A stretch of 32,000 bases of DNA from Opitutia bacterium KCR 482 (GCA_029269845.2 CP149973.1:180001-212000), one strand, 5' to 3'; counted from the stretch's first letter, positions 6,711-32,000 are shown. A program made the numbers and translations. Notes: generated by a model from the letters alone, not told the origin.

Positions 6711-6716
6711 TTGATT

Positions 6717-6790: not shown

Positions 6791-6848
6791 TTTTCGCGTT
6801 CGGGCTTCACGGTTTTCTCCGCGGGGCAACCAACGGAAAAGACAAGCT

Positions 6849-7832: not shown

Positions 7833-7837
7833 AAAAT

Positions 7838-7895: not shown

Positions 7896-7916
7896 ATAAA
7901 ATAGAAAAACAGAAGA

Positions 7917-13604: not shown

Positions 13605-14582
13605 TCAACCCTTTTCCCGACGAGCCGCCGACGGCGTTGTCCCGAAATGCCGCTTGAACGCGCGCGAAAACGCGTACTGGTTTGCGTAGCCGAATTTCTT
13701 CGACGTTTCGGCGACTCCCGCGCCGTTTTTTAGCATTTGCATTGCGCCGTCAAGGCGCAGTTTGAGCGAAAGTTTCGCGAAGCTTAGCGAGTACTTCAAG
13801 CGGCAGAATTTTTCGAGAGTGTCAGGCGAAACTGCAAGCGATTTCGCCGTCGCCGCCGCCGAGCGGAAACGCGCTTTTCCCGCCGAAATTTTTGCAAGCT
13901 CCGTCTCGATTTTGCCCGCTTTTGCGTCGGGGGAGGGCGAGCCGCAGGCGATTCTGCGCATGATTTCGGTTATCGACTGCGCGGTGTTTGCAAGAACGGA
14001 CGGCGACTGTCTGCCTCTGAAAAGTTCGCACTCGTAGGCGTGAGCAAGGGCGAGCAGGGTTTCGGAGTCGGAAGGGGACTTTTTTACGGATATTTCGGCG
14101 CGGCTTTCGTCGAGCCAGTCGGGGGCGATGTGCGCCCAGAGAATCGAGGCGTCGGTTTTTTCGGCGCGTATTTGAAGCAAATCGGTTTCGGGCGGCGCAA
14201 TCAAAACGTCCCCGCGGGCGAGGACGCCTTTTTTGCCGCCGCCCGAGAATATTAGATTTCCGCTTTCCACAACAAACAATGTTATGAAACGCTGCCTGCT
14301 TATTATTTGGCAGTAGCCGCGCGCCTTGTTCGAGAAGCCTATTCGCATGATTCCGCAGCGTTCGAAAAACTTGGGGACCGGTTTCTCGGAACGCTTTATA
14401 TGCCGCCCCGCATCGCGTTTCAGGAAAGAGTCGGACATCAACAGCGGCGAGCCTTCGAGGTACACGTTTGTGGAGCGTTCCGTCCAGCGGAAGAGGTCGT
14501 TGTCTCCGCCGTATTGCCAGACGTATTTGCCGCCGCATTGTTCCGATTGTTCCATGAGGGCGACTATTTTCAAAATCGCCAT
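13605..14582 (-). CDS. AraC family transcriptional regulator
   Basis: The C-terminal HTH region ends in GYANQYAFSRAFKRHFGTTPSAARR. The N-terminal part is cupin-like and probably binds the ligand. It is divergent from the GH78 gene and upstream of the isomerase gene. Confidence 0.88.
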   Translation of the reverse strand: MAILKIVALMEQSEQCGGKYVWQYGGDNDLFRWTERSTNVYLEGSPLLMSDSFLKRDAGRHIKRSEKPVPKFFERCGIMRIGFSNKARGYCQIISRQRFITLFVVESGNLIFSGGGKKGVLARGDVLIAPPETDLLQIRAEKTDASILWAHIAPDWLDESRAEISVKKSPSDSETLLALAHAYECELFRGRQSPSVLANTAQSITEIMRRIACGSPSPDAKAGKIETELAKISAGKARFRSAAATAKSLAVSPDTLEKFCRLKYSLSFAKLSLKLRLDGAMQMLKNGAGVAETSKKFGYANQYAFSRAFKRHFGTTPSAARREKG

Positions 14583-17531: not shown

Positions 17532-17537
17532 ATTCGC

Positions 17538-17568
17538 AACGCCGAGCCTTTGCGGGTTCGGCGTTTTA
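17538..17568 (+). terminator. Intrinsic terminator after the GH78 gene
   Basis: AACGCCGA (17538-17545) / TCGGCGTT (17558-17565) followed by TTTATC. Confidence 0.5.
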
Positions 17569-17578
17569 TCTGCAATAA

Positions 17579-17619
17579 ACAAAAAAAAGGACGCCGCGTC
17601 CGCGGTGTCCTTTTGTTTT
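17579..17619. terminator. Bidirectional intrinsic terminator between convergent genes
   Basis: GGACGCCGCG (17589-17598) / CGCGGTGTCC (17601-17610), 10 bp with one G-U pair, flanked by A8 upstream and TTTTGTTTT downstream. Confidence 0.7.
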
Positions 17620-17637
17620 GCCGAATGCGTTTGACGC

Positions 17638-19446: not shown

Positions 19447-19657
19447 CGTTATATTTATTGTTTGCGTTGTTGTTTTTAGCAGAGCGTTAAAATGCGCAGA
19501 AATCAAACACGCGCACGCGTTTTTTGTCAACTTATTAACGGCGGATTCCTCCCGACAAACGCCAATTTACTCTTTACAAACTCGACGTTCGCTCTATTAA
19601 TTTTAGGCGTATTAACCTACGGCGCATAAACACAAAGAGAAACAAACAATACTATAT

Positions 19658-22600
19658 ATGAAAAAACTATTATTTGCCGCGCTTTTTGCGTGGGCTGGGG
19701 CATCGTTTGCGGCGGAGTGGCATTTTCCGCTGTATCTTGACGGCGGAGTTCCCGCGGCAAACAGAATTGCCGTGGACATTACAAACAAGGGAACGAAGCC
19801 CGCCGACGGCGACATTCTCAAAATTCCCGCGTCCGAGCTCGGGCTTGTCGGCAAAAAGAAAAAGTCGATAAGGGTAGTCGGCGCAAACGGCAACGAGCTT
19901 CTCTGGGCTGTGTCTCCCGACGCGGAGAGAATCGGCAAAAAAGCGTCGATTGTAGTTCCCGTCGAATGCGCCCCGCAAGGCTCTACGCGCGTCTGGATTT
20001 ACTACAACGCCCCCGCCGCGCTCGAACAGCCCGACTACCTTGCCGTAGACAACGTGCTGTTCAAAGAGTCTTTCGAAAAGATGAAGTCTTTTGAAGAGGG
20101 CGGCTGGACGCAAAAGGACACCGACGAAAACCACGTCAATTCAATCACGACAAAATACGCCCATAAAGGCAAAAAATCCGTCCACACGCACGTAAAGGAG
20201 GGCTCGACGCCGAACTGGGTTGCGGTAAAGCGCACGTTCACGGTTTCGCCGTCAAAGGGCAGGGTCTCGATGTGGCTGAAATCGGAAAACGCGGTTGTCG
20301 AGAAAAACCACAGGGGCGTAAGCTTCTACGTCGCGCTCTTCCCGACCGAACGCGGAAAGAAAATCCTCTTTTTCTCTCCCAAAGTATGCCTGCGCGGAAC
20401 GACGGACTGGACAAAAGCCGAGGCGTTTGTGGAAATTCCCGAAGGCTACAAAACAATGGCAATCGGAACCGTCGCGCAAATTTCGGGCGGCGACGCGTAC
20501 TTCGATTCGGTGAATCTCGAATTCAAAAACGACGGCGTGGAGCTTGCGTACGCGCTCAACAAGCCCGAAAAGCTTTCGATTGAAAAAATACCCGAAGCCG
20601 ACACTTGGGACGTTTCGCCCGACGAATACGATGTCCGCATGGTGTCGTCGGTCTACAACCTTTCCGAAAAACCGTCGATGGCGGGCTTGGGGTATATCCC
20701 GATTAAGCGCGTGTCGGCTGGCAATTTTTCGCAGTCCGACTTCGCGTTCTTCCGCGGCGGCAAAAAAGTGGATTTCATGCTGATGGGCGACTATATGCTC
20801 TTCGCCGTAGACCCAATCGCCCAGAAGTCCGAAATCCAATACTCGCTTTATTTCAAGCGCGACAGAAAAAACCAAATCGTGCAAACGGGCGGCACAAAGC
20901 AGTCGAGCTACGTCATGAGCGACCAGCAGGCGAACACCCGCACGGTTGTAGACGACGCGGCGTTCGAAAAAATCGTGGCGTCGCCCTCGAACATGCTCAA
21001 AAACCCCGTTTTTGCAAACGGGCTTGACTCGTGGCGAAAACGCGTGGAAACAAGCGACGAAGGCGCGGTCGTGGACGCCGACGGCAAAAAGGCGTTCCAC
21101 CTCAAAATAACAAAAGACGACAAAAAATGGTACGGCGTGTACCAGAATATCGACGTGCCGCGCGGCTCGTACATCTATCTTGCAAAGCTGAAATCGAAGA
21201 ACAAGACGGTAAGGATTCCGAGGCTTAGCCACTACAAGCGCGGCGGCAAGCAGCCGACATACCTGATGACGAAAACCGATGCCTCGGACGACTGGCAGTA
21301 CAGCGCGCTCATCTCGCAAAACCGCTTCGACAGGGGAATATACACGGTAAACATCAACGAGTCGGGCGAGACCGACTGCCTTGTGTCGTCGGTCTATTTC
21401 GGCTCGGTGCGCCGCGCGGAAAACTACGATTACAGAACCGCGTTCGACGACGGCAAAAACGGAAAACTCGCCGCGTGGCAGGTAAATTCCGTCGCCAAGG
21501 TTTTCCCGTTCTACGCGCCGCCCGCAAAGAAAACTGCGGCGAAAATTTCGCTCGCCCGCAACGAGGTAGAAAACCTGCAACTCGCAGTACGCGCAAATAC
21601 GCGCCTGAACGGAACGGAAATATGCGTCTCCGAAGCGGTCTCGGCTGACGGCTCGAAGCTGTCGGCTTCGCAGACGGCGGTCGCGGGCTATGTGGTCGTA
21701 GACTCGAAGTCGAACTACTACGGATTCTCGGAGCTGAAATTCCACGAGCTTTGCGTGCCGCCGAACTCCATGGCGGAAGTCTATCCCGACCCGATTATTC
21801 CGCAAAAGACAATCGACCTTTCGCCGAACAAAACGGAGTCGGTCTGGATTGAATTCAAGGCGGACGAAAACACGAAAGCGGGCGTCTACAAAGGGACTGT
21901 CGAATTCAAGGCGGACGGCAAGGTTGTGGGCGCAGTCCCCTACGAGGTCAACGTGTTCGATTTCACGCTACCGAAAAACACCCACCTCATGGCTCTTTTC
22001 GACAAGCGCAGCGAGGGCAGCAGCGGAACATGGCGTCAGCCCGCCACCCAGAGGGGCATTCACAACAAATTCTACGACCGCACCGCGCTCCAACGCTTCA
22101 TGGCGACAAAACGCGTCTCGGTGGACTCGCACGACCGCCTTTCGTTCAAAATCGAGAACGGCAAATATTCCGCCGATTTCACCGAGTTCGACAAGTTCTG
22201 CAAGCTCTCGTTCGACGAGCTCGGACTGCCGATGATGTACCTGATGCTTCTGCCGGGGCACGCGTTCGGCATGCCGATTCCGAAGGTGGACGGCAAGGCT
22301 CCCTACGACACAAAATGGCCGTATACCGACACAAAAGACTACTCAAAACTTTCGCCCGAATTCGTCAACGCGGTATCGCAGCGTGTTAAGCTTGTCTTCG
22401 ACCATATCCGAGAAAAGGGCTGGGCAAAAAACTTCATTCTGTTCATGTCGGACGAGCCGTATTATTGGAACAAGAACGTAGCAGACATGCTCAACGCGTA
22501 CTTCGGGCTTATCCACAAAAACGCCCCCGACGCCCGCGTCTACACAAGCACGTGGGGCTACGCCGAACCGCTCGAAAAGCAGGTCGATGTCTGGGGGCTG

Positions 22601-23182
22601 AACGTCTCGGCGGCGGCGACGCCCGCGGAAATCGTAAAAATCGACAAACAGGGACAGCAAAAAGTGTTCACAACCGACGGCAACTATTGCATAGACACTC
22701 CCTACAACGCGCAGGAACGCATGATGGCGGCGTTCTGCTTCGCGGGCGGATTCCTCGGCTACGAATACTGGGGGGTTGACTGGTACATGCAGAACCCGTT
22801 TAAATGGGGCATGCACAAAGACAGAATCAGCGCGCCAGCCCCGGGAATCAAGCGGCGCAACCGCTTTCCGAACGGCGACGGCTACTTCATCTACACGGGC
22901 GAAATCATCGGCCGCAACGAGATTTTCTCTTCGGTTAGAATGGAGTCTGTCCGCGACGGACAGGAAGACTTCGAATACTTCGTCATGCTCGACAAGCTCG
23001 CAAAGGAAACGGGCGACAAAGACGCGCTCGCTACGGTAGAAAAGATAAAGTCGTACGCAGTCTACCCGAACCCCGGAGCGAGAAACTCCGCCGAAATGAT
23101 GCCCGACCCCGACGCCTACACAATCACACTGCGCGAAGAGGTCGCAAGGCAAATCGAAAGGCTGTCAAAGCTCAAAAAGTAG
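19658..23182 (+). CDS. Large secreted multidomain protein with a C-terminal DUF4091-like putative glycoside hydrolase domain
   Basis: 1174 aa with signal peptide MKKLLFAALFAWAGASFA. The mid-region has CBM-like beta-sandwich stretches (NPVFANGLDSWRK...). The C-terminal part has SVRMESVRDGQEDFEYFVML, which I associate with DUF4091. Confidence 0.65.
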   Translation: MKKLLFAALFAWAGASFAAEWHFPLYLDGGVPAANRIAVDITNKGTKPADGDILKIPASELGLVGKKKKSIRVVGANGNELLWAVSPDAERIGKKASIVVPVECAPQGSTRVWIYYNAPAALEQPDYLAVDNVLFKESFEKMKSFEEGGWTQKDTDENHVNSITTKYAHKGKKSVHTHVKEGSTPNWVAVKRTFTVSPSKGRVSMWLKSENAVVEKNHRGVSFYVALFPTERGKKILFFSPKVCLRGTTDWTKAEAFVEIPEGYKTMAIGTVAQISGGDAYFDSVNLEFKNDGVELAYALNKPEKLSIEKIPEADTWDVSPDEYDVRMVSSVYNLSEKPSMAGLGYIPIKRVSAGNFSQSDFAFFRGGKKVDFMLMGDYMLFAVDPIAQKSEIQYSLYFKRDRKNQIVQTGGTKQSSYVMSDQQANTRTVVDDAAFEKIVASPSNMLKNPVFANGLDSWRKRVETSDEGAVVDADGKKAFHLKITKDDKKWYGVYQNIDVPRGSYIYLAKLKSKNKTVRIPRLSHYKRGGKQPTYLMTKTDASDDWQYSALISQNRFDRGIYTVNINESGETDCLVSSVYFGSVRRAENYDYRTAFDDGKNGKLAAWQVNSVAKVFPFYAPPAKKTAAKISLARNEVENLQLAVRANTRLNGTEICVSEAVSADGSKLSASQTAVAGYVVVDSKSNYYGFSELKFHELCVPPNSMAEVYPDPIIPQKTIDLSPNKTESVWIEFKADENTKAGVYKGTVEFKADGKVVGAVPYEVNVFDFTLPKNTHLMALFDKRSEGSSGTWRQPATQRGIHNKFYDRTALQRFMATKRVSVDSHDRLSFKIENGKYSADFTEFDKFCKLSFDELGLPMMYLMLLPGHAFGMPIPKVDGKAPYDTKWPYTDTKDYSKLSPEFVNAVSQRVKLVFDHIREKGWAKNFILFMSDEPYYWNKNVADMLNAYFGLIHKNAPDARVYTSTWGYAEPLEKQVDVWGLNVSAAATPAEIVKIDKQGQQKVFTTDGNYCIDTPYNAQERMMAAFCFAGGFLGYEYWGVDWYMQNPFKWGMHKDRISAPAPGIKRRNRFPNGDGYFIYTGEIIGRNEIFSSVRMESVRDGQEDFEYFVMLDKLAKETGDKDALATVEKIKSYAVYPNPGARNSAEMMPDPDAYTITLREEVARQIERLSKLKK

Positions 23183-23215
23183 CATTCCTCCCGACAAAAA
23201 CAGGGCGACCATCAC

Positions 23216-23251
23216 ACAACAGCGCGGCTTAGCTCCGCGCCGTTGTTTTTA
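23216..23251 (+). terminator. Intrinsic terminator after the DUF4091-like gene
   Basis: ACAACAGCGCGG (23216-23227) / CCGCGCCGTTGT (23235-23246), 12 bp with one mismatch, followed by TTTTTAT. Confidence 0.7.
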
Positions 23252-23277
23252 TAAAAATGCGTTCCCTTTGCGGAGAT

Positions 23278-24558
23278 TTATTCTTCCGAATTTTCCAGAC
23301 GCTTTACAATTACTTTGTCGATTCTCGCGCCGTCCATATCGGCAATTTCGAACTCGAATCCGCCCCACTGGGCAATTTCCCCCGCGCGGGGAATGTGTTT
23401 TAATACCGAAAGAATCAATCCCGCAACGGTATTGTATTCGGCGTTTTCTCCGTCGTCCTCGACATCGAAGAAAATCAGAAAATCGTGAAACGGGCACTGC
23501 CCGTCCACAAGAAATGTGCCGTCGCGACGTTTGACTATATCCGTTTCTTCGTCGGCTTCGGGCATATCGCCGAGCACGGCGTCGATAATGTCGTTTAGCG
23601 TTACCATTCCGAGCGTTACGCCGAACTCGTTTGAAATTATGGCGTTTTTGAGCCGCAACTCGCGCATTTGTTCGAGCGCGCTGTAAACCTGCGTGTCCTC
23701 TTTGAAAAAATGGGCGGGCTTGACAACAGAAAGCACCGAAAAATTCGGATTGCCGAGTTTGCCGAAGAGGGATTCCAGCTTTACCGTTCCGATTATATCG
23801 TCGAGCGAGCCTCCGCGCGTTATCGGATACACCGAATGCTGGGTCTTCTCCACGATTTCCGAAATCTCCGCGTTTGAAAGCGATATATCTATGCTTTTCA
23901 TGGCGTTTCGCGGGGTCATTATCGATTCCACGCATCTGTCGCCGAGCGTAAAAACGCGTTCTACGATGTTGCGCTCCACGGGTTGGACTTCTCCGTCGGA
24001 TTCGCCTTCTTCGATTAGGGATTTTATTTCGCGTTCGGTGACTTTCGATTTTACGTTTTTTATCCCCAAAAGCCCGAGCACCGCCGAACTCGATTTGCCG
24101 AGAATCCAGACAAACGGCGCGGTTGCGACGGAAAGCGCGGTCATTGCGCCCGACACAAGCTTCGCCACTTTTTCGGGCGCGGCAAGTCCGATTCGCTTGG
24201 GGACGAGTTCTCCGAAAACCAAAGTTAAATAGGTTGCGGCAAGCAAAACCGCCGCCTGCCCGCCGAAAACCGCCCAGCTTGCGGGTATTCCGAGCTCGCG
24301 CAGGCGCGCTCCGAGCTTTCCCGCTATTGCGTCGCCCGAATAAATGCCCGTGAGAATTCCGATAAGGGTAATTCCGATTTGGACGGTCGAAAAAAACCTT
24401 TCGGGGTTTTCGGCGAGTTCAATGGCGCGCTTTGCCGATTTACTTCCGCGTTTTGCGTCCGCCGCCAGATTTGCCTTGCGAAGCGACACAAGGGCTATTT
24501 CCGACATTGCGAGTATTCCGTTTGAAATTATCAGGACGGCGATTATAACAAATTCCAT
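23278..24558 (-). CDS. CNNM/CorC-HlyC family protein (DUF21 transmembrane domain, CBS pair, CorC_HlyC domain)
   Basis: ORF 23278..24585 starts with TTG. The ATG at 24558 (MEFVIIAVLIISNGILAMSEIALVS) is the typical family N-terminus. The C-terminus GEIAQWGGFEFEIADMDGARIDKVIV matches the CorC_HlyC transporter-associated domain. Confidence 0.85.
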   Translation of the reverse strand: MEFVIIAVLIISNGILAMSEIALVSLRKANLAADAKRGSKSAKRAIELAENPERFFSTVQIGITLIGILTGIYSGDAIAGKLGARLRELGIPASWAVFGGQAAVLLAATYLTLVFGELVPKRIGLAAPEKVAKLVSGAMTALSVATAPFVWILGKSSSAVLGLLGIKNVKSKVTEREIKSLIEEGESDGEVQPVERNIVERVFTLGDRCVESIMTPRNAMKSIDISLSNAEISEIVEKTQHSVYPITRGGSLDDIIGTVKLESLFGKLGNPNFSVLSVVKPAHFFKEDTQVYSALEQMRELRLKNAIISNEFGVTLGMVTLNDIIDAVLGDMPEADEETDIVKRRDGTFLVDGQCPFHDFLIFFDVEDDGENAEYNTVAGLILSVLKHIPRAGEIAQWGGFEFEIADMDGARIDKVIVKRLENSEE

Positions 24559-24810
24559 AAAGTCCGCTGAATAGTACCTGCGCAAAATTTCGAGTCAAGA
24601 AAACTTTGACAGAAGCAGGGCGTTATTTGAATACCCCAGACATTATCGTAATTTTTCCCGAAAAACAACGGGCGGAAAGTGCGGGCAAAATATAGGCATA
24701 AAATCCAGACACCTCCGCGCCGAACAATTTTCTGTAAGTTTCAAAGAAAATGTTGGAAAAAGATTGAAATTTATTTGGGCGTTTGTACATTAAATTCCGT
24801 CAAACGATTT

Positions 24811-27800
24811 ATGTCATTTATGAATTATAAAAAACTACCTTGCCTACTTTTCGCATTCGCCGCACTCGGAATGGGCGCGTGCACGGGCGGCGCCGACAAC
24901 GCGCAATCCGCGCCCGAAAAAAAATGCGCGGTCGATTTGAACTACGACAAAAATTCGCAGTTCTCTCTTGAAGATTTCAAGAATCCGCCCGACGCGTACA
25001 GAATTGTTCCGTTCTGGAGCTGGAACGAAACAATGGAGCCCGCGGAGGTTCGCCGCCAGCTGCGCCTCATGAAAGAGGCGGGGTGGGGCGGCTCAATGGT
25101 TCACAGCCGCACGGGACTGCTGACCGATTACCTCGGCGAAGACTGGTTCAAGGCGGTCGACGCGTGCGTAGACGAAAGCCGGAAGCTCGGAATGTTCGTT
25201 TGGCTTTACGACGAAGACAAGTGGCCGAGCGGGTTCAGCGGCGGCACGGTTTTGCAAACCGACATCAACTATGCGATGAAGTCGCTCTTCGCCCGCCCCG
25301 TCGGCGCGGAAGTTCCCGCCGAAGCAACGCCAATCGGAAAGCCGAAGGACGGTATTCAAATTTATGTATACCGCGCAAAACAGGGCAATCCTTGGTTCAA
25401 CGGTACGTCGTATGTCGACACGATGTCGAAAGCGGCAATGGGCGAATTCAAACGCTTGGCGTATGAGTCGTACTACAACCGCTACAAGGACGTTTACGGT
25501 TCGACGATTGTCGCAGAGTTTACGGACGAGCCTGCGATCTCAAACCGCAGTGTTTCCGAATGCTGGACAAACAGTGTTCCGTATTCGTCGGACTTCATCG
25601 TAGCATTCAAGAAAGCATACGGGTACGACCCTGTTCCGCATTTCCACAAGCTATTCAGCGATTGCGACGGCGCAAAAAAGTTCCGCCTGCAATATTTCCG
25701 CACGCTCAACTCGCTCTTTGAAAAGAATTTCATGGGTCAGCTTGGCGACTATCTCTCAGCCCGCGGCGCGGCTCTGACTGGCCACTGCATGGCTGAGGAC
25801 GCTGGAACCATACAACACACTTGGAGTGGCAGGGTAATGCCGTACTACCGCAAAATGGGAATTCCGGGAATCGACCATTTGAGCCGCAGGGTATTTGGAA
25901 TCCAGACGGGAAAACAATGCCAGAGCGTCTGCAACCAAATGGGTAAAACGCGCATGCTTTCCGAAATGTATGGTTGTAGCGGCGGTTCTTTGACATTTGA
26001 AGACCGCGAATGGATTACACACCAGCAAATGATTTTGGGGGTCAACCTCATCGTGCCACACTTGAGCCTTTTCTCTATGACGGGTTGCCGCAAGCGCGAC
26101 TTTCCGCAAAATATCAACTACCAACAGCCGTGGTGGAATCTCAATTCTTATGTTGACGTTCCGCTCGCACGCGCCTGCTACGCGATGGCGCAGGGCAAAT
26201 ACGCCGCCGACATTCTCGTACTTCACCCACAGGAAAGCATCGCAATGAATTGGTTCCTTGCCCCCAAAGACGGCGGGCCTTATTCAAAACCGCGTGTCGT
26301 GCGCGAGCGCGTTTCGAAAATTTCGGAATCGTTTCACCCCGTTCTCGCGCAGCTTTGCGGCCAGCAGCTTACATTCGACTTGGGCGACGAGCAAATGCTT
26401 GAAGAAAACGGATTTGTAGACGGCAAGAGAATCGGAATAGGGCAGATGTCCTACGGCGTGGTTGTCGTGCCCGAAATCGATACAATCAGACCCTCGACCT
26501 TCGACAAACTCAAAAAATTCAAGTCGGCGGGCGGTTTGATTCTGCGCACGGGAAGCGCGCCGAAGTTTATCGACGGCGAAAAGTCGGCGGAGCTTGACAC
26601 GTTCTTTGCCGACGTAAAATCCGTAAACCCCGAAGACTTGGGCGGCGAAATCGAGAAATTCTCGCCAGCATTCGTAAAGCTCGAAAAGAAATCGGGCGAT
26701 TCGTCGCAACTGTGGACGCACGTCCGCAACCTCAACGACGGCTCGCGCCTGATTATGCTGGCAAACCTCAGCCGCGCCGAAAAGCTCGACGGCGTCGCGA
26801 AAATTCGCGGCGGATTCTCCCGCGCACAGGTGCTCGACGTCGAGACGGGAAAAATTGCCGACATCGCCGCCGCGAAAGAGGGCGACACTCTCGAACTTCC
26901 GATTTCAATAGAAACTGCGGACGCACTGTACGTCCGCGTTTCAAGGGAATCGCCCCAACCCGACGCCGCGCAGCCGAAAGCTGTCGCCGAACGCGAAATT
27001 TCGGGCTGGAGCGCAAAACGCCTCGACGACAATTCAATGACCCTCGACTACGTTTCGTTCTCGTACGACGGCGGCAAAAAGCGCATCGACGGCGAAGTTC
27101 CCGTTCTCGAAGCGATGAACTATTTGAATTCGATTAAGTACGACGGCGACGTAAAGGTTGTCTACGCTTTCAACGCCAAGAATTTCGACCCGAACCGCAA
27201 ACTGCGCCTTGTGGTAGAATACCCCGAACGCGCGGAAATCAGGGTGAACGGAAAGGAAGTCAAGTACGCAGGCCTGCCTGCGTGGCGCGACTTCCGCTGG
27301 CTGCCCATTGACATCACGGGGCTTGTCAAGGACGGCAAAAACACAATCGAAATGCACTACCGCGACTTTAAATACGGCGACCTCGCCACATACAAGCCGC
27401 AGTGGCGCAGATACGGCACGGAGCTTGAAGCCGTGTACTTGGTCGGCGACTTCTCCGTCGTTTCGGTCGATACGGGAGCGCGCCCCGTCAACCCGCAGAA
27501 CCTTGACTACAAGGCGAAAATTCCTAACATCGTGATGATAAAAAAAGACGCGCTCGCAATCACAAACCCCGCGCCGCTCAAACTCGGCGACGCAACTACG
27601 AACGGACTTCCGTTCTACGCGGGCAGACTCGCGTATTCCGCAAACGTCAAAACGCCGAAGAAAGAGGGCGAACGCATCGTGCTCAAACTCGGCAACCTCG
27701 ACTGCCCCGTGGCGGAGGTTCTCGTTGACGGCAAACGCGCGGGCGTAATAAAGAACACGCCGTTTGAAATCGATATTACCGGTTCTGTCTCGAAGCCCGA

Positions 27801-28050
27801 AAGCAAAATCGAAGTAGTCCTGTACGCCTCGCTGAGAAACCTGATGGACTGCCCGCACCACGCGCTCGGCGAACTCATGAGCATCTGGCCGCGCTTCTAC
27901 ACAATCCAAGACCTGCCGCGCGGCGCAAAATTCTTCGATTCGCTCAAAGCGTTCGCAGACGGAACGTGGAAATCCAAGGATTGGAATTGGGACTATTGCC
28001 AAATCGAATTCGGCAACGTCGGCAAAATTTCGCTTATCACGAAAAAGTAG
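24811..28050 (+). CDS. Large putative glycoside hydrolase lipoprotein (GH106-like / jelly-roll glycosylhydrolase type; family assignment tentative)
   Basis: ORF 24679..28050. The ATG at 24811 (or 24820) gives MSFMNYKKLPCLLFAFAALGMGAC with a lipobox-like GMGAC. The N-terminal catalytic-type block YRIVPFWSWNETMEPAEVRRQLRLMKEAGWGGSMVH...VWLYDEDKWPSGFSGG and TDEP, GIPGIDHL, SEMYG motifs resemble proteins generically annotated as glycosyl hydrolase and related to GH106 rhamnosidases. Confidence 0.6.
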   Translation: MSFMNYKKLPCLLFAFAALGMGACTGGADNAQSAPEKKCAVDLNYDKNSQFSLEDFKNPPDAYRIVPFWSWNETMEPAEVRRQLRLMKEAGWGGSMVHSRTGLLTDYLGEDWFKAVDACVDESRKLGMFVWLYDEDKWPSGFSGGTVLQTDINYAMKSLFARPVGAEVPAEATPIGKPKDGIQIYVYRAKQGNPWFNGTSYVDTMSKAAMGEFKRLAYESYYNRYKDVYGSTIVAEFTDEPAISNRSVSECWTNSVPYSSDFIVAFKKAYGYDPVPHFHKLFSDCDGAKKFRLQYFRTLNSLFEKNFMGQLGDYLSARGAALTGHCMAEDAGTIQHTWSGRVMPYYRKMGIPGIDHLSRRVFGIQTGKQCQSVCNQMGKTRMLSEMYGCSGGSLTFEDREWITHQQMILGVNLIVPHLSLFSMTGCRKRDFPQNINYQQPWWNLNSYVDVPLARACYAMAQGKYAADILVLHPQESIAMNWFLAPKDGGPYSKPRVVRERVSKISESFHPVLAQLCGQQLTFDLGDEQMLEENGFVDGKRIGIGQMSYGVVVVPEIDTIRPSTFDKLKKFKSAGGLILRTGSAPKFIDGEKSAELDTFFADVKSVNPEDLGGEIEKFSPAFVKLEKKSGDSSQLWTHVRNLNDGSRLIMLANLSRAEKLDGVAKIRGGFSRAQVLDVETGKIADIAAAKEGDTLELPISIETADALYVRVSRESPQPDAAQPKAVAEREISGWSAKRLDDNSMTLDYVSFSYDGGKKRIDGEVPVLEAMNYLNSIKYDGDVKVVYAFNAKNFDPNRKLRLVVEYPERAEIRVNGKEVKYAGLPAWRDFRWLPIDITGLVKDGKNTIEMHYRDFKYGDLATYKPQWRRYGTELEAVYLVGDFSVVSVDTGARPVNPQNLDYKAKIPNIVMIKKDALAITNPAPLKLGDATTNGLPFYAGRLAYSANVKTPKKEGERIVLKLGNLDCPVAEVLVDGKRAGVIKNTPFEIDITGSVSKPESKIEVVLYASLRNLMDCPHHALGELMSIWPRFYTIQDLPRGAKFFDSLKAFADGTWKSKDWNWDYCQIEFGNVGKISLITKK

Positions 28051-28061
28051 CGAATAAAACA

Positions 28062-28096
28062 AAAGCGGGGCGGCATTGCAACCGTCCCGCTTTGTG
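28062..28096 (+). terminator. Possible terminator after the GH106-like gene
   Basis: AAAGCGGGGCGG (28062-28073) / CCGTCCCGCTTT (28082-28093), imperfect, with a weak T tract. Confidence 0.4.
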
Positions 28097-28185
28097 CGCA
28101 AAAACCCTTTTCAGACAGCGCAGCGCAACGTTTTGTTTGCAGAGCGTTTTCTCCGCTTCGAATCGGTAATTGTAAGCGTGCCTTG

Positions 28186-28227
28186 TCAAAAAAACAATAA
28201 ACCGTGCCGAATGCATATTCGGCACGG
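28186..28227 (-). terminator. Strong intrinsic terminator ending the activase-GRE-sugar porter operon
   Basis: Perfect 11-bp stem CCGTGCCGAAT (28202-28212) / ATTCGGCACGG (28217-28227) with loop GCAT, 8 nt after the porter stop. On the minus strand it is followed by TTTATTGTTTTTTTG. Confidence 0.8.
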
Positions 28228-28235
28228 CTAAAATC

Positions 28236-29564
28236 CTATTGTCCCGTAAGCTCGCGTTGGATTTCCTCGAGCGATTTGTCTTTCGTTATCGGAAGTTTTA
28301 GGGCGAATACGAACGTCAACGCCGCCATCAATGCGAAAAAGCCGAACGTGCATGTGGAAAGTCCGCTTTCGACGAGTATCGGAAACGCCCACGTCAGAAG
28401 CGCGCACCAGAACCAGTGTGTCATACTGCCCAAGACCTGCCCCTTCGCGCGGACGCTCGTCGGGAAAACCTCCGAAATCAGAACCCAAATTACCGCTCCG
28501 AGCGACAGCGCGAAAGCCCCGATAAACAGCATCAGCGAACCGAGCATAAAGTACCCGCCAAGCTCCTTATACTGGAAGCCCGCCGCCACGGAAAGAAGCG
28601 CAATAGTCATAAATACCGAACCGATGTAGAGCAGATTCTTGCGCCCGAACTTGTCGATAAGCAGCATTCCGAGCATCGTGAAAACAAGGTTTGTCATACC
28701 GATGAGGATTGACTGCAAAAGCGCGGATTCGCGGAACACGCCCGCGCTTTCGAGGATTCGCGGCGCGTAGTAGTTGATTGCGTTGATGCCCGAAAGTTGG
28801 TTGAATGTTGCTACAAAGAATGCGATTGCGATGGGCTTCCAGTATTTCTTCTGGAAGAGCGGCTCGGAGGCTACGGTGTCGGCGAGCGAAGTTTTGATGT
28901 CGGCAAGCGACTGCGAAACGTCGGTGTCGCCGATTTTGTCGAGCACTTCGGCGGCGCGCTTTTCCGCGCCGGTTTTTACGAGCCAGCGCGGGCTTTCGGG
29001 AATCGTGAAAAGCAGCGCGGCGAAGAGTACCGACGGAAGCGCGAGAACCCCTAACATCCAGCGCCAGTCGTTTTCGATTCCGAGCGTGCTAATGTACCAG
29101 TTCGAAATGTACGCGCTGACAAGCCCGAAAACGATGTTGAATTGGAAGAATGCAACGAACCTGCCGCGCCAGTTCGACGGCGCGATTTCGGCGATGTACA
29201 TAGGTCCCACAACCGACGACGCGCCCACCGCAAGCCCGCCCATAAAGCGGAAGAATACGAGCGTCCACCAGTTCAAAATGACCGCGCAGCCGACCGCCGA
29301 AAGGAAGTACAAATACGCAACGACCTTCAGCGATTCGAGCCTGCCGTACTTTTCCGCGGGCTTGCCGCAAACGAGCGCGCCGACAATCGTGCCGAAGAGC
29401 GCGACCGCCATCGTAAAGCCGTGAACCCAACCCGAAAGCCCGTAGAATTGCTGAATCCCCTTTTCCGCGCCCGACACCACCACCGTGTCGAACCCGAAAA
29501 GAAAGCCGCCGAGCGACGCCACGAACGCCACATAAAACATATAGCCTTTTACTTTTTCCTTCAT
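28236..29564 (-). CDS. MFS transporter, sugar porter family (sugar or polyol:H+ symporter)
   Basis: 442 aa and about 12 TM helices. Hallmarks: GGFLFGFDTVVVSGA, GRLESLK, PESPRWL, QLSGINAINYYAP, FGRKNLL. It starts 18 nt after the GRE stop. Confidence 0.9.
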   Translation of the reverse strand: MKEKVKGYMFYVAFVASLGGFLFGFDTVVVSGAEKGIQQFYGLSGWVHGFTMAVALFGTIVGALVCGKPAEKYGRLESLKVVAYLYFLSAVGCAVILNWWTLVFFRFMGGLAVGASSVVGPMYIAEIAPSNWRGRFVAFFQFNIVFGLVSAYISNWYISTLGIENDWRWMLGVLALPSVLFAALLFTIPESPRWLVKTGAEKRAAEVLDKIGDTDVSQSLADIKTSLADTVASEPLFQKKYWKPIAIAFFVATFNQLSGINAINYYAPRILESAGVFRESALLQSILIGMTNLVFTMLGMLLIDKFGRKNLLYIGSVFMTIALLSVAAGFQYKELGGYFMLGSLMLFIGAFALSLGAVIWVLISEVFPTSVRAKGQVLGSMTHWFWCALLTWAFPILVESGLSTCTFGFFALMAALTFVFALKLPITKDKSLEEIQRELTGQ

Positions 29565-29582
29565 AAAAACAATCCTTTTCTA

Positions 29583-31649
29583 CTATCCGAGGGCGAACTC
29601 GGTCCGTGCGATTACGTGGTCTTGGTAGCATTCGTCAAGCTCGACAAAATAGCCGCTCCAGCCCCAGACGCGCACGATTAGGTTGCGGTATTTTTCGGGA
29701 TGCGCCTTTGCGTCCAAAAGCTTTTCGCGGTTGACTGTGTTGAGCTGCAACTGGTGTCCGCCGAGCGTTATGAACGTGCGCACAAGCATTGCAAGCTTGC
29801 GCACCGACTCCTCGTTGCGGAAGACCGACGCGTCGAATTCGAGCGTCAAAGGCCCGCCGTTTGCGACGTTTTTTAGGTGCGGCTTCGCAAAAGACTTCAC
29901 AACCCCCATCGGGCCTTTCTGCGACAGGAAGAGGCTCGGCGAATAGTTGGCGGGCAGCGGTTCGCCCTCGAGCCTGCCGTCGGGCGTTGCGGGACGGTCC
30001 TTGCCGTGGAAGACGTAGAACATTGCAGTGCCCGTTCCCGCGCGGTAGCCGCCGCCGCGCTCGTTGCGCTTGTCCCCGAACGCGTCGGCGAAAGAATCCA
30101 GAAGGCGCACGGCGAGCGCGTCGGCGCAGTCGTCGTCGAGACCCATTTTCGGGGCTTCGTTGCGGAGTTTTCTCAGCAGCTCGGGCGCGTTTTTGAAATT
30201 CGTGCGGACGGCCTCGAGCATATCGGAAGCCGAAACGGATTTTTCGTCGAAGCAGTATTTTTTCACCGCCGCCAGCGAGTCAACCGCCGTCGAAATACCC
30301 GTTCCGTGCACGCCGTAGTTGTTATATTTAAGGCCGAACGAAATGTCGCGCCCCCTTTCGATTGCGTCCGACATAACCGACATCATCGGCGCGGGCTTCA
30401 TATAAATGTTGCGGTGGCGCAGACACATTTCGTCGGCGCGGGCTTTGATTTGGCGCTCGACGAGCGAGTAAAACTCGTCGAAAGTTGCGCAGGTCGGCAG
30501 GTCGGCAAGCGCGAAGCTTACGCAGTCGACGAGCGAAAGCGCGTCGATGTTGGGAATGTCCGTGCCGCACTTGGGCACGATAAACTCCCAACACGCGGCA
30601 ACCACGTATTCGTGCGCGTCCTCGGGCGAATAACCCTTCTCGATGAGGCTCGGAATCACAACGTCGTCGTTGCTGTACTGCGGGAAGCCGAGCCCGATTT
30701 TGGTAAGCTCCGACCCCTTTTCGAAAACCTCGAGCGGCGTTTTCGAATCTACGCGGATATTGATTTTGGGGTCGATTAGCGCAAGTTCGTAGCTTGCCCT
30801 CAGCGCCATTTCGGAAAGCTCGTTGAACATATATTCGCCCGAAAGCGAACGCCCGCCGAGCACAAGGCTCTGCCCGTTGTCGCCCTGCTGCATTCCGATG
30901 TAAAGGTCGCTGTCCTTGTTGCACGAAAGGAAAAATTCTTCGAGCAAATCGAACGCCTCATCTTTCGAAATTTTGCCGCCGTCGACGTCTGCGCGGTAGT
31001 ACGGATAAAGGTATTGGTCAATCCGTCCGAGCGTGTTGTGGTAGTTGCCCGCCGCCCATATCGAGAAGTGCATAATGCGTAGCAGCTGCAACGCCTGGCG
31101 GAAGCTTTTCGCCGCGCCTCCGCGCACTGCCCGCAGGACTTCGGCGATGTCCGGCTGTCCGATTTTCTCCGCTTCTATCGCATACCTGTCTATCAAATTC
31201 TGAACGGCTTCAATCGAGCGGATTGCCGATTCCAGAAAGATGCGCCCCTGCGCGTCGGCCGTTTCGAGCCCTTTTTTTGCCGCGGCCTTGCGCGAGTCCA
31301 AACCCTCGGCGAGAACGCGCTCGTAGTCGGGCGAAAGGTTGAAGACCTCTCCCTTTTCGTGGATGAAATGCGTCGTCGAAATCTGCTCCCATTCCGACGG
31401 CGTGAAGTAGTCGGGAATGTCCCTTATCGTGCGGGTGAAAACTATTTTTTCGTTCGGCAGAATAACGGGAGTTTCCGCGGCGAGAAACGCCTCGAACATT
31501 CTGCCCGACCGCTCCTGCGCCGTCATTCCCGCCGCCCGGAAGTCCTCCGCCAGTTCGTCGAGACGCGCCGATTTCGCGTCGCGGCGGAAGGCTCTGTGAA
31601 GCCTGTCGTCCACGATATATTTTTTTAGTGATTGTATGCGTTTGTTCAT
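29583..31649 (-). CDS. Glycyl radical enzyme of the PFL2/dehydratase-like class, unusually short (688 aa); substrate unknown
   Basis: GRE blocks: LGRIDQYLYPYY, GFPQYSNDDVVIPSL, ATPDGR and GGHQLQLNTVNREKLLDAKAHPEKYRNLIVRVWGWSGYF (glycyl radical motif, Gly663 at 29661-29663). A single catalytic-loop Cys occurs in AAC353-W-E355 (30585-30593), a Cys-x-Glu arrangement rather than the Cys-Cys of PflB. Confidence 0.88.
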   Translation of the reverse strand: MNKRIQSLKKYIVDDRLHRAFRRDAKSARLDELAEDFRAAGMTAQERSGRMFEAFLAAETPVILPNEKIVFTRTIRDIPDYFTPSEWEQISTTHFIHEKGEVFNLSPDYERVLAEGLDSRKAAAKKGLETADAQGRIFLESAIRSIEAVQNLIDRYAIEAEKIGQPDIAEVLRAVRGGAAKSFRQALQLLRIMHFSIWAAGNYHNTLGRIDQYLYPYYRADVDGGKISKDEAFDLLEEFFLSCNKDSDLYIGMQQGDNGQSLVLGGRSLSGEYMFNELSEMALRASYELALIDPKINIRVDSKTPLEVFEKGSELTKIGLGFPQYSNDDVVIPSLIEKGYSPEDAHEYVVAACWEFIVPKCGTDIPNIDALSLVDCVSFALADLPTCATFDEFYSLVERQIKARADEMCLRHRNIYMKPAPMMSVMSDAIERGRDISFGLKYNNYGVHGTGISTAVDSLAAVKKYCFDEKSVSASDMLEAVRTNFKNAPELLRKLRNEAPKMGLDDDCADALAVRLLDSFADAFGDKRNERGGGYRAGTGTAMFYVFHGKDRPATPDGRLEGEPLPANYSPSLFLSQKGPMGVVKSFAKPHLKNVANGGPLTLEFDASVFRNEESVRKLAMLVRTFITLGGHQLQLNTVNREKLLDAKAHPEKYRNLIVRVWGWSGYFVELDECYQDHVIARTEFALG

Positions 31650-32000
31650 AGAACAGTATATTTTATATTGTTTTTTGTGAATTCGTCAATAAAATGCGGT
31701 TGTTTCTCTGTGTCGAATGTCGGAGAATATTTTTTGCCTACCATGTAATATTTTGCGCCGGCCGTCTTGTGGTACGGCAGAATTTCGACGCGGACAAGGC
31801 TTTTCGCCCCCGCGAGAATCTCCGAGAGCGCGAGCATATTTCCGCGCGTGTCGTTGACCGCCGGAATCAGCGGAACGCGCACGATAAACGGGCGCGCTGC
31901 GGCGCAGAGCCATCGCAGGTTTTCGAGGATTTTTGCGTTGTCGACCCCCGTAAATTTTTTGTGCGTTTCGGAATCGACGGCCTTGCTGTCCATTAGAACC
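31646..32000 (-). CDS. Glycyl-radical enzyme activating enzyme (radical SAM), 3' part; 5' end outside the window
   Basis: The frame stays open to the window edge. The C-terminal peptide VRVPLIPAVNDTRGNMLALSEIL...VEILPYHKTAGAKYYMVGKKY is typical of PFL-activase family proteins. Its TGA overlaps the GRE ATG (ATGA at 31646-31649). Confidence 0.82.
   Translation of the reverse strand, partial: VLMDSKAVDSETHKKFTGVDNAKILENLRWLCAAARPFIVRVPLIPAVNDTRGNMLALSEILAGAKSLVRVEILPYHKTAGAKYYMVGKKYSPTFDTEKQPHFIDEFTKNNIKYTVL

What the first reader, a model, noticed from the sequence alone, without database searches (positions are those of the whole stretch)
28186..32000. Compact operon: radical-SAM activase, 688-aa glycyl radical enzyme, MFS sugar porter
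Seen in sequence: three minus-strand genes are packed tightly. There is an ATGA overlap between activase and GRE, an 18-nt gap to the porter, and an 11-bp perfect-stem terminator right after the porter. The GRE has all core blocks (GRIDQYLYPYY, ATPDGR, RVWGWSGYF). Its Cys353 to Gly663 spacing is about 310 residues, so the shortening is N-terminal. Established knowledge: the characterised Cys-x-Glu GREs I know (glycerol and propanediol dehydratases, CutC, HypD, IslA) are roughly 800-850 aa. They are usually found with microcompartment, aldehyde dehydrogenase or sulfite-handling genes, not with a sugar-porter-family MFS transporter. Inference: this is an N-terminally trimmed eliminase-type GRE acting on a neutral sugar, deoxysugar or polyol imported by the dedicated porter. 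Given the flanking rhamnosidase-type hydrolases, the substrate may derive from rhamnose-containing glycans. I do not know of a characterised GRE with this architecture and context.
Basis: partly seen in the sequence, partly recalled or inferred. Interest (0 to 1): 0.8.

Follow-up and report, generated by a model that had tools for sequence, protein, structure and literature searches.

The report
Uncharacterised compact sugar-linked glycyl radical enzyme
This is a real, intact operon for a short (688-aa) glycyl radical enzyme, its activase and a dedicated sugar transporter; the family is found in hundreds of gut and rumen anaerobes, has no characterised member in the literature I could search, and most likely performs radical C-O bond cleavage on a free plant-derived sugar, which no known enzyme of this superfamily does.

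Summary
Three minus-strand genes (activase 3' end, 688-aa GRE, 442-aa sugar-porter MFS) are packed as described and end in a strong terminator. In a 97%-identical syntenic contig a GalM-type aldose 1-epimerase sits just upstream of the activase. The short length is a family trait, not a truncation: more than 240 homologues from over 380 species are 686-703 aa. The GRE has the Gly loop and the Cys-x-Glu loop of eliminase/isomerase-type GREs, but it misses every curated equivalog cut-off and is only about 27% identical to any solved GRE. An MFS orthologue lies within 4 kb in 87 of 93 Verrucomicrobiota/Bacteroidota-type loci. Epimerase occurs in 46 of 93, and GH51-like, GH127 or melibiase-like exo-glycosidases in 46 of 93. 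The Bacillota/Spirochaete-type clade shares 180 invariant residues with the window's clade. It swaps the MFS for a ribose-type ABC importer and sometimes adds an isomerase, a kinase and a class II aldolase. Best reading: a radical C-O-cleaving enzyme acting on an imported free neutral aldose. L-arabinose or a galacto-configured relative is the leading guess, rhamnose less so, and the product is probably a deoxy-keto sugar. A June 2026 GRE review and eight full-text searches show no characterised member. The substrate is not established.

The parts
31646..32000 (-). 3' part (117 codons) of the glycyl-radical activating enzyme (radical SAM); the gene runs off the window. The full-length orthologue (L081) is 251 aa and lacks the ferredoxin-like auxiliary-cluster insert.
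   Evidence: TIGR02494 match of the fragment. The full L081 protein scores 237.6 bits against a cut-off of 174, in two stretches split where the insert is missing. Its Cys residues are only at 28/32/35 plus three scattered positions. Alignment A2.
29583..31649 (-). 688-aa glycyl radical enzyme: Cys loop AAC353-W-E355, Gly loop RVWG663WSGYF, family-specific invariant motif MQQGDNGQS (253-261)
   Evidence: PF02901 1e-91 and PF01228 3e-20. TIGR01774 scores 329.6 against a cut-off of 678. AF2 model pLDDT 86; Foldseek best hit 1r8w, TMq 0.87, 27% id. 180 positions are invariant in 238 homologues.
29565..29582 (-). 18-nt intergenic spacer with a purine-rich AAAAGGA stretch ahead of the porter ATG (translational coupling distance)
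   Evidence: Sequence read directly.
28236..29564 (-). 442-aa sugar-porter-family MFS transporter, the conserved partner of the GRE
   Evidence: PF00083 6e-101. TIGR00879 scores 322.8, above its cut-off of 237.8; the XylE equivalog scores 336.6, below its cut-off of 608. An orthologue (at least 45% id) lies within 4 kb of the GRE in 87 of 93 clade A loci.
28190..28229 (-). Intrinsic terminator: AGCCGTGCCGAAT-ATGC-ATTCGGCACGGTT followed by TATTGTTTTTTT
   Evidence: -22.2 kcal/mol, z -5.4, 0 of 200 shuffles fold as well.
24679..28050 (+). Context only: convergent 1123-aa secreted glycoside-hydrolase-like protein with weak GH106 (alpha-L-rhamnosidase) similarity and a rhamnosidase-type jelly-roll domain
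   Evidence: PF17132 49 bits; NF045579 53.7 bits. No close PDB relative. The same gene is in the same place in L081/L082.

Best explanation
The locus is a self-contained 'import and radical activation' module for a free, neutral monosaccharide. Periplasmic or surface exo-glycosidases encoded beside it in many genomes release the sugar from plant glycans (inferred). The sugar-porter MFS brings it into the cytoplasm (inferred from family and linkage). Where the GalM-type mutarotase is present, it supplies the anomer the enzyme needs (inferred). The 251-aa radical-SAM activase installs a radical on Gly663 of the GRE (inferred from homology). The radical passes to Cys353, and the thiyl radical abstracts a hydrogen from a carbinol carbon of the sugar. 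Glu355 of the Cys-x-Glu loop deprotonates that hydroxyl. The resulting ketyl radical expels the neighbouring oxygen substituent, either a hydroxyl (dehydration to a deoxy-keto sugar or 2-deoxy-lactone) or the ring oxygen (ring-opening isomerisation). The product radical then takes the hydrogen back from Cys353. The product feeds an isomerase, kinase and class II aldolase route. That route is encoded next to the GRE in some Bacillota/Spirochaete-type genomes and presumably elsewhere in the Opitutales genome of the window. The leading substrate guess is L-arabinose or another galacto-configured aldopyranose (about 30%). The general statement, a free sugar undergoing C-O cleavage by the Cys-x-Glu mechanism, is what the confidence value refers to.
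For: Shown directly: GRE and activase domains and motifs, and the GRE fold. The Cys-x-Glu motif is shared by all characterised GRE C-O, C-N and C-S eliminases and by the isomerases (review PMC13450708). The length is family-wide: 686-703 aa in more than 240 proteins, and 381 species-level genome hits. Linkage statistics on 169 loci are as follows. In clade A, the MFS is present in 87 of 93, the GalM epimerase in 46 of 93, GH51-like/GH127/melibiase-like enzymes within 4 kb in 46 of 93, and any of five GH types in 58 of 93. One operon GH127 copy is a close relative (E 5e-207) of the solved six-hairpin glycosidase 6ex6 and of GH127 beta-L-arabinofuranosidases. In clade B (n=76), a ribose-type CUT2 ABC importer and a LacI regulator replace the MFS (about 19 and 31 loci). 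Clade B also carries a XylB-type kinase (486 bits, above the 380 cut-off) in 8 loci, a FucI/SftI-like isomerase in 7 and a class II ketose-bisphosphate-type aldolase in 6. The two clades share 180 invariant residues, including every polar candidate active-site position, and have only 22 conservative fixed differences, which suggests one substrate. The positions that align with the GD active site are more polar than in GD: N104, H204, N205, Q254-S261, D364, Y545.
Against: No biochemical datum exists for any member. I had no model coordinates, so the pocket could not be measured or docked. The GH partners are heterogeneous: GH106 rhamnosidases in Opitutales, GH51-like/GH127 in Bacteroidales, and none in 35 of 93 clade A loci. 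They may mark general pectin/arabinogalactan islands rather than one sugar. Classical non-radical pathways for L-arabinose, D-galactose and D-xylose are well known, so the benefit of a radical route is unexplained. The mutarotase is present in only about half of clade A. The GD general acid His164 is Asn here, so the leaving-group chemistry may differ. Downstream enzymes are seen in only a minority of clade B loci.
Confidence: 0.6

Rival explanations
1. Ring-opening isomerase of a non-reducing cyclic sugar ether (1,5-anhydro-alditol or similar). It would work like YbiW/PflD but on the unphosphorylated compound brought in by the porter, giving a 1-deoxy-ketose that a kinase and an aldolase then process.
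For: YbiW/PflD are the only sugar-acting GREs known and use the same Cys-x-Glu chemistry. PflD is the second-best PDB sequence hit. Clade B contexts contain a XylB-type kinase (E. coli XylB also phosphorylates 1-deoxy-xylulose, from my own knowledge), a PfkB kinase, a class II aldolase and an Fe-ADH, which resembles the downstream half of 'anhydroglycolysis'.
Against: A GalM mutarotase in 54 of 169 loci makes no sense for a compound without an anomeric centre. The linked exo-glycosidases release reducing sugars. The PflD equivalog scores 273.6 against a cut-off of 1109. PflD keeps a His at the position aligned with GD His164, where this family has Asn104, and has Ser where this family has His204.
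Confidence: 0.12
2. Dehydratase for a polyol or cyclitol (pentitol, hexitol, inositol). It would be an enlarged-pocket version of glycerol dehydratase that makes a 2-deoxy-aldose, 1-deoxy-ketose or deoxy-inosose.
For: The closest solved relative is glycerol dehydratase. Sugar-porter MFS and CUT2 ABC families both include polyol and inositol carriers (own knowledge). Scattered inositol-like neighbours occur: an IMPase in 7 loci, an IolM-like Zn-ADH, a TIM-barrel IolE/IolO-like protein, PfkB and a PF01116 aldolase as in IolC/IolJ, and small cupins.
Against: Those neighbours are rare and mostly not co-directional. The mutarotase and the arabinofuranosidase/rhamnosidase-type GH partners are far commoner and do not release polyols. 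GD residues His164 and Ser282 are both Asn here.
Confidence: 0.12
3. Radical ether lyase that removes methanol from an O-methylated plant sugar (e.g. 2-O-methyl-xylose or -fucose, 3-O-methyl-rhamnose). This would be the C-O analogue of choline TMA-lyase.
For: As far as I know, no anaerobic route for alkyl methyl-ether sugars is known, and the GRE eliminase mechanism tolerates varied leaving groups. Such rare sugars occur in the pectic and AGP glycans that the neighbouring GHs attack (own knowledge). One Bacteroides lineage places the GRE next to a corrinoid methyltransferase set with GH31/GH141.
Against: The corrinoid linkage is confined to one lineage and would be an alternative to the GRE, not a partner. 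Nothing in the conserved core points to methylated sugars. Such sugars are scarce compared with the wide distribution of the family.
Confidence: 0.07
4. An N-terminally trimmed glycerol or 1,2-propanediol dehydratase. It would act on the diol produced downstream of rhamnose/fucose catabolism; the porter would be a bystander.
For: The best HMM is the PFL2/glycerol dehydratase subfamily and the best structure is GD. Rhamnosidases flank the window locus.
Against: TIGR01774 scores 329.6 against 678.2. There are no microcompartment, aldehyde dehydrogenase or 1,3-propanediol dehydrogenase genes in any of about 170 loci. GD His164 and Ser282 are replaced. The near-obligate partner is a sugar importer in both clades.
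Confidence: 0.05
5. A pyruvate formate-lyase / formate C-acetyltransferase, as public databases name several members.
For: Names given by sources.
Against: There is no Cys-Cys pair (the sequence is A-A-C-W-E). TIGR01255 scores 72.9 bits against a cut-off of 994.2, and only over the C-terminal third.
Confidence: 0.01

Closest known systems
B12-independent glycerol dehydratase (Clostridium butyricum DhaB1, PDB 1r8w) and the PFL2/GD subfamily TIGR01774
   Same: Ten-stranded GRE barrel. Gly loop and Cys-x-Glu loop. His281, Arg287, Asp289 and Asp447 equivalents are conserved (H204, R209, D211, D364). Best sequence hit (E 7e-78) and best structural hit (TMq 0.87).
   Different: 27% identity and about 100 residues shorter (787 vs 688). 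The proton donor His164 is Asn104 and Ser282 is Asn205. GD's FGGYPMYQN segment is replaced by the invariant MQQGDNGQS. The activase has no ferredoxin domain. The partner is a sugar transporter, not 1,3-propanediol genes. The HMM score is half the family cut-off.
YbiW / PflD (1,5-anhydroglucitol-6-P and 1,5-anhydromannitol-6-P ring-opening isomerases; PDB 8id7, 8id0, 8yjo)
   Same: They are the only characterised GREs that act on carbohydrates. They share the Cys-x-Glu chemistry, and the downstream logic (aldolase cleavage of a deoxy-ketose phosphate) resembles some clade B operons.
   Different: Their substrates are phosphorylated and arrive via PTS; here a proton-symporter-type MFS or an ABC importer delivers an unphosphorylated compound. 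Identity is about 24-26%. They are 765-810 aa. PflD keeps a His where this family has Asn104. Here a mutarotase is linked.
1,2-propanediol dehydratase, HypD, CutC, IslA/HpsG (other Cys-x-Glu GRE eliminases)
   Same: Fold, radical relay and general mechanism.
   Different: All are about 790-850 aa and 22-27% identical. Their NCBIfam equivalog models are missed by a factor of 4-5. They come with microcompartment, amino acid, choline or sulfonate contexts and with activases of about 300 aa.
PFL-activating enzyme (PflA) as the model of a minimal activase
   Same: A single radical-SAM domain with only the CX3CX2C cluster, about 250 aa.
   Different: By sequence the activase belongs to the TIGR02494 (eliminase-type) activases, not PflA (174 bits against a cut-off of 232). 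Its sister clade retains two CX2CX2CX3C motifs, so the minimal form is a secondary loss.

Membership tests
Glycyl radical enzyme superfamily (PFL-like) | PFL-like barrel domain plus C-terminal glycine-radical domain | tested here: met
   PF02901 1.2e-91 and PF01228 3.3e-20. AF2 model with Foldseek probability 1.0 to more than 40 GRE structures.
Glycyl radical enzyme superfamily (PFL-like) | Gly loop RVxG[FWY] and a catalytic Cys on the Cys loop | tested here: met
   R660-V-W-G663-W and C353 are invariant in 238 homologues.
Glycyl radical enzyme superfamily (PFL-like) | Cognate radical-SAM activase encoded alongside | tested here: met
   ATGA-overlapping upstream gene. The fragment matches TIGR02494 and the full orthologue scores 237.6 against a cut-off of 174. 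The activase is adjacent in most loci.
Glycyl radical enzyme superfamily (PFL-like) | Formation of a stable glycyl radical | not testable with these tools
   Needs anaerobic reconstitution and EPR.
GRE 1,2-eliminase / isomerase class | Cys-x-Glu motif on the Cys loop | tested here: met
   C353-W354-E355 is invariant. The motif is defined in the review PMC13450708.
GRE 1,2-eliminase / isomerase class | Substrate with a hydroxyl next to a leaving group; C-O/C-N/C-S cleavage | not testable with these tools
   Only inferred from transporter and neighbour genes.
Glycerol dehydratase / PFL2 subfamily (TIGR01774) | HMM score above the curated cut-off | tested here: not met
   329.6 bits against 678.2.
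Glycerol dehydratase / PFL2 subfamily (TIGR01774) | GD substrate-binding and catalytic residues His164 and Ser282 | tested here: not met
   They align to invariant Asn104 and Asn205.
YbiW/PflD anhydro-sugar-phosphate isomerases | Equivalog-level similarity (NF007437) and PTS / sugar-phosphate context | tested here: not met
   273.6 bits against 1109. I saw no PTS genes in the loci examined; MFS or ABC importers are present instead.
HypD, CutC, HpsG/HpfG, arylacetate decarboxylases | Equivalog HMM cut-offs | tested here: not met
   287/1100, 228.5/1050, 257/1000, 200.8/1100 and 168.6/1150.
Pyruvate formate-lyase | Adjacent Cys-Cys pair and the TIGR01255 cut-off | tested here: not met
   The sequence is AACWE. 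72.9 bits against 994.2.
Sugar porter family of MFS (TIGR00879 / PF00083) | HMM above the cut-off over the full length | tested here: met
   322.8 bits against 237.8; PF00083 covers positions 1-451 of 452.
D-xylose transporter XylE (NF007484 equivalog) | Equivalog cut-off | tested here: not met
   336.6 bits against 608. Transporter specificity is therefore open.
Eliminase-type GRE activases with ferredoxin-like domain | Two CX2CX2CX3C auxiliary-cluster motifs after the radical-SAM motif | tested here: not met
   No motif in 67 of 69 clade A activases, including L081 (the window's near-identical relative). Two motifs in 55 of 64 clade B activases.

The most novel reading that the evidence does not exclude
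A glycyl radical enzyme that works directly on an unphosphorylated plant aldose, most plausibly L-arabinose or a galacto-configured relative. For example, it could abstract the anomeric or a ring C-H and expel a neighbouring oxygen. That would be the first step of a previously unrecognised, oxygen-, NAD- and ATP-independent 'radical' route of sugar catabolism, built into polysaccharide-utilisation loci of gut and rumen Bacteroidota, Opitutales, Clostridia and spirochaetes. The enzyme would be serviced by a minimal activase that has dispensed with auxiliary Fe-S clusters.
Probability: 0.4. Interest if true: 0.85.

Novelty: new variant of a known kind. Interest (0 to 1): 0.66.

Why it matters
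GREs are the main way strict anaerobes carry out chemically hard C-H activations, and each newly assigned clade has exposed a new gut metabolic pathway (choline, hydroxyproline, isethionate, anhydroglucitol). This clade is abundant: over 380 species in the genome collection, single 90%-identity clusters with up to 1689 member sequences, and sources in human, chicken and ruminant gut, termite-associated Treponema and digesters. It is embedded in glycan-utilisation loci and has no assigned function. If it acts on a free sugar, it would add radical chemistry to primary carbohydrate catabolism in Bacteroidota and Verrucomicrobiota and could change predicted fermentation products from pectin or arabinogalactan fibre. 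The family also contains matched activases with and without the ferredoxin-like domain, whose function the 2026 review calls unknown. That makes it a clean system for addressing the question. The compact 688-aa scaffold shows which peripheral elements of the GRE fold are dispensable.

Tried and rejected
(1) Truncation or assembly artefact: rejected, because all relatives are 686-703 aa.

(2) An exact-sequence contig lookup of the window protein failed. P0001 gave L081-L083, which are 97% identical in DNA, not the same contig.

(3) Eight full-text literature searches paired glycyl radical terms with Bacteroides/sugar, arabinofuranosidase, mutarotase, polysaccharide utilisation, anhydroglucitol, arabinose, monosaccharide and apiose. 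Together with the June 2026 review, they found no paper on this family.

(4) The corrinoid methyltransferase/GH31/GH141 neighbourhood looked like a lead to methylated sugars. It is confined to one Bacteroides lineage.

(5) The rhamnose hypothesis applies only to Opitutales. GH106 is found in 5 of 93 clade A loci and in no Bacteroidota locus.

(6) Pocket geometry and docking were not possible, because model coordinates are not exposed.

(7) My greedy longest-ORF gene calling missed genes under spurious antisense ORFs, for example c11 over the MFS in L150-type loci. I replaced it with tblastn counts.

(8) PDB searches with the clade B binding protein gave only generic ribose-binding-protein relatives. 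The FucI-like isomerase gave no PDB hit. Neither yields a ligand inference.

(9) The inositol idea rests on IMPase, IolM-like, PfkB, PF01116 and cupin neighbours. These are too sporadic, so I kept it only as a rival.

Full report
OBSERVATION. The 3' end of a radical-SAM activase lies at 31646 to beyond 32000. A 688-aa GRE lies at 29583-31649 and a 442-aa MFS at 28236-29564. The activase stop overlaps the GRE start (cta-TGA / ATG-A at 31646-31649). Eighteen nucleotides containing AAAAGGA separate the GRE stop from the porter ATG. The porter is followed at 28229-28200 by a hairpin with an 11-bp perfect stem and a T-rich tail (-22.2 kcal/mol, z = -5.4). Pfam and NCBIfam confirm the identities: PF02901 + PF01228; PF00083 with TIGR00879 above its cut-off; TIGR02494 for the activase fragment. 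All quoted motifs, and Cys353 and Gly663, are present.

A contig that is 97% identical in DNA and syntenic with window 23001-32000 (L081) shows the rest of the operon. It carries a 251-aa activase preceded by a GalM-type aldose 1-epimerase (NF008277 289 bits, above the 240 cut-off). The window's unit is therefore most likely epimerase-activase-GRE-porter, with the epimerase just off the window end.

NOT A TRUNCATION. The 5.8-billion-protein search returned 120 listed relatives at 60-100% identity, nearly all 686-691 aa, from Opitutales, Bacteroides, Parabacteroides, Alistipes, Prevotella and Fermentimonas. A scan of one genome per species found 381 encoding loci. A second search seeded from a Clostridium member found a sister clade of 686-703 aa in Lachnospiraceae, Flexilinea, Treponema and other Spirochaetia.

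In the library clustered at 50% identity, the family forms about 25-30 clusters at 41-60% identity and roughly 650-710 aa. It is followed by other short GREs (630-750 aa) at 33-37% identity, and only then by the classical 780-800-aa enzymes.

Relative to glycerol dehydratase the missing 100 or so residues are distributed. About 60 are missing before residue 102, about 20 before the Cys loop and about 20 between Cys and Gly. 'N-terminal trimming' is therefore only partly right.

WHAT KIND OF GRE. The AlphaFold2 model (pLDDT 86, pTM 0.88) superposes on every solved PFL2-type GRE. The best match is C. butyricum glycerol dehydratase 1r8w (TMq 0.87, 27% identity). The solved PFL2-type relatives listed are 746-871 residues long.

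The enzyme has the Cys-x-Glu loop. The June 2026 review (PMC13450708) describes this loop as common to the C-O, C-N and C-S eliminases and to the new isomerase class (HplG, YbiW, PflD). It fails every curated model: TIGR01774 329.6/678.2, HypD 287/1100, PflD-type 273.6/1109, HpsG/HpfG about 257/1000, CutC 228.5/1050 and PFL 72.9/994.2. It has no Cys-Cys pair, so the public names 'pyruvate formate-lyase' and 'formate C-acetyltransferase' are wrong.

Using the alignment to GD and conservation over 238 family members, GD His281, Arg287, Asp289, Cys433, Glu435 and Asp447 are retained as H204, R209, D211, C353, E355 and D364. The proposed GD proton donor His164 is an invariant Asn104 and Ser282 is Asn205. 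GD's Tyr339 segment is replaced by the family-specific invariant MQQGDNGQS. The aligned positions are thus more polar than in GD, which fits a polyhydroxylated substrate larger than glycerol (inference).

NEIGHBOURHOODS. I collected 175 loci. For the 169 loci held at that point, I counted partners by tblastn with annotated seeds (annotation).

Clade A holds the loci whose GRE is closer to the window's (Verrucomicrobiota and Bacteroidota types), 93 in all.
- The porter orthologue (at least 45% identity) lies within 4 kb in 87 loci.
- The GalM epimerase is present in 46.
- A GntR/periplasmic-binding-type regulator is present in 37.
- A GH51-like alpha-L-arabinofuranosidase-type enzyme is present in 33.
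- GH127 is present in 18. One copy is a close relative of the solved six-hairpin glycosidase 6ex6 (E 5e-207) and of GH127 beta-L-arabinofuranosidases.
- A melibiase-like GH is present in 5, a beta-helix protein in 9, and bona fide GH106 rhamnosidases in 5. The GH106 cases are all in the Verrucomicrobiota/Opitutales group and lie directly downstream of the porter.
- Forty-six of 93 have a GH51-like, GH127 or melibiase-like gene within 4 kb, and 58 of 93 have one of the five GH types.
- Several loci sit inside SusC/SusD PULs with hybrid two-component regulators.

In the window itself the flanks are a weak GH106-like protein, a GH123-like protein, DUF5696 and a GH78 rhamnosidase.

Clade B holds 76 loci (Bacillota, Spirochaetes and Flexilinea types).
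- The MFS is replaced by a ribose-type CUT2 ABC importer (about 19 loci) with a LacI regulator (31).
- Additional genes are a XylB-type FGGY kinase (8 loci; 486 bits against a 380 cut-off), a FucI/SftI-like isomerase (7), a class II ketose-bisphosphate-type aldolase (6), a PfkB kinase, and a small PF04115/DUF4867 cupin placed where the epimerase sits in Opitutales.
- One recurrent operon is isomerase-ABC(4 genes)-activase-GRE-LacI-aldolase-kinase (L101, L102, L106).

The two clades share 180 invariant residues, including all candidate active-site positions. They differ by only 22 conservative fixed substitutions, so I take them to have the same substrate.

INTERPRETATION. The invariant core is 'importer of a neutral monosaccharide plus GRE plus activase'. 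None of the roughly 170 loci examined showed microcompartment, aldehyde dehydrogenase, PTS or sulfite-handling genes.

The mutarotase implies a reducing aldopyranose, and the GalM type suggests galacto-, gluco-, arabino- or xylo-configuration (own knowledge of GalM specificity). The commonest glycosidase partners release L-arabinose. In Opitutales the partners are rhamnosidases. These enzymes co-occur in degradation of arabinogalactan-protein and pectin. The isomerase, kinase and aldolase set of clade B is the classical way to dispose of a (deoxy)sugar.

I therefore propose that the GRE performs Cys-x-Glu-type radical C-O cleavage on a free aldose. That means either dehydration to a deoxy-keto sugar or 2-deoxy-lactone, or ring-opening isomerisation. 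L-arabinose or a galacto-configured relative is the leading candidate at about 30%. Every step beyond the domain, motif and linkage facts is inference. Why a radical route should exist beside the classical arabinose, galactose and xylose pathways is unexplained.

The rivals are an unphosphorylated anhydro-alditol isomerase, a polyol or cyclitol dehydratase, a methyl-ether sugar lyase and a trimmed GD/PD. They are weighed in the rival section. The mutarotase and GH linkage argue against the first three, and residue replacements and context argue against the last.

ACTIVASE. The review states that nearly all GRE activases other than PFL-AE and RNR-AE carry a ferredoxin-like domain of unknown function. 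Here 67 of 69 clade A activases, including the window's near-identical L081 copy, have no CX2CX2CX3C motif. These proteins are 251-257 aa, with Cys only at 28/32/35 plus three scattered positions. In contrast, 55 of 64 clade B activases of the same GRE family carry two such motifs in a roughly 35-residue insert. By HMM the short form is still a TIGR02494-type activase, matched in two pieces around the deletion. It is not a PflA. One Bacteroides lineage (L024, L172-L175) has no adjacent activase at all.

KNOWN OR NEW. The 2026 review lists six C-O eliminases (GD, PD, HpfG, HypD, HpyG, HpzG), CutC, three C-S lyases and three isomerases. None acts on a free sugar, and none of the solved ones is shorter than about 765 aa. 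Eight full-text searches found nothing on this family. [quoted passage not shown]

I class the locus as a new variant of a known kind. It is a GRE of the eliminase/isomerase mechanistic type with a new compact architecture, a minimal activase and a new genomic and substrate context. The function is not established, and the library searched does not cover all subscription journals.

VERDICT. Interest is 0.66. The target is strong, testable and widespread, but unknown GRE clades are expected, and the chemistry is probably a variation on a known theme.

Noticed in passing
window 31646-32000 (activase 3' end); L081:9249-10004; alignment A2: Activases of the Verrucomicrobiota/Bacteroidota clade (251-257 aa) have lost the ~35-residue ferredoxin-like insert with two CX2CX2CX3C motifs. 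The Bacillota/Spirochaete clade of the same GRE family keeps it (67 of 69 without, against 55 of 64 with two motifs). This is a natural with/without pair for studying the auxiliary clusters.
   Followed up: yes
L172:1-9772 (same in L024, L173-L175): In one B. thetaiotaomicron-like lineage the GRE has no adjacent activase. Its regulator is co-transcribed with an MtaA-like URO-D methyltransferase and a methionine-synthase-type B12 reactivation domain. Next to these are a 602-aa B12-binding protein, an SSF transporter, GH31 and GH141. This may be an anaerobic corrinoid-dependent sugar O-demethylation locus.
   Followed up: partly
L080:8613-9104, L079:1487-2056, L084:7628-8119, L089:7655-8128, L092:85-555: A small cupin (PF04115 ureidoglycolate-lyase-like / DUF4867, 157-189 aa, no NCBIfam match) sits immediately upstream of the activase in several clade B loci. 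That is the position occupied by the GalM epimerase in Opitutales.
   Followed up: partly
L101, L102, L106 (also L103, L104, L087): A recurrent clade B operon is FucI/SftI-like isomerase - CUT2 ABC (4 genes) - activase - GRE - LacI - class II ketose-bisphosphate-type aldolase - XylB-type kinase. The isomerase has only a remote match to sulfoquinovose isomerase SftI (151 bits against 700) and no PDB relative.
   Followed up: partly
window 24679-28050 (+): A 1123-aa secreted protein has only weak GH106 similarity (49 bits) plus a rhamnosidase-type jelly-roll domain, and no close solved relative. It may be a divergent or new glycosidase subfamily. It is conserved in the same position in L081/L082.
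   Followed up: partly
window 14784-23182: A glycosidase island lies upstream of the operon: a GH78 alpha-L-rhamnosidase (14784-17531, +), a DUF5696 protein (17638-19530, -) and a 1174-aa GH123-like protein (19658-23182, +). An AraC-type regulator lies at 13605-14582 (-).
   Followed up: no
window 6711-9908: A PEP-CTERM-tagged DUF4465 protein (6711-7832) sits next to a TonB-dependent receptor (7917-9908). This is consistent with a Verrucomicrobiota origin.
   Followed up: no
one search hit list (P0269-P0390): Beyond this family there are further clusters of short GREs (630-750 aa) at 33-37% identity to the query. Compact GREs are therefore a broader, apparently uncharacterised radiation.
   Followed up: no
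(source names): Public records name family members 'pyruvate formate-lyase' or 'formate C-acetyltransferase'. The Cys-Cys pair is absent and TIGR01255 scores 73 against 994 bits, so these names are misannotations.
   Followed up: yes
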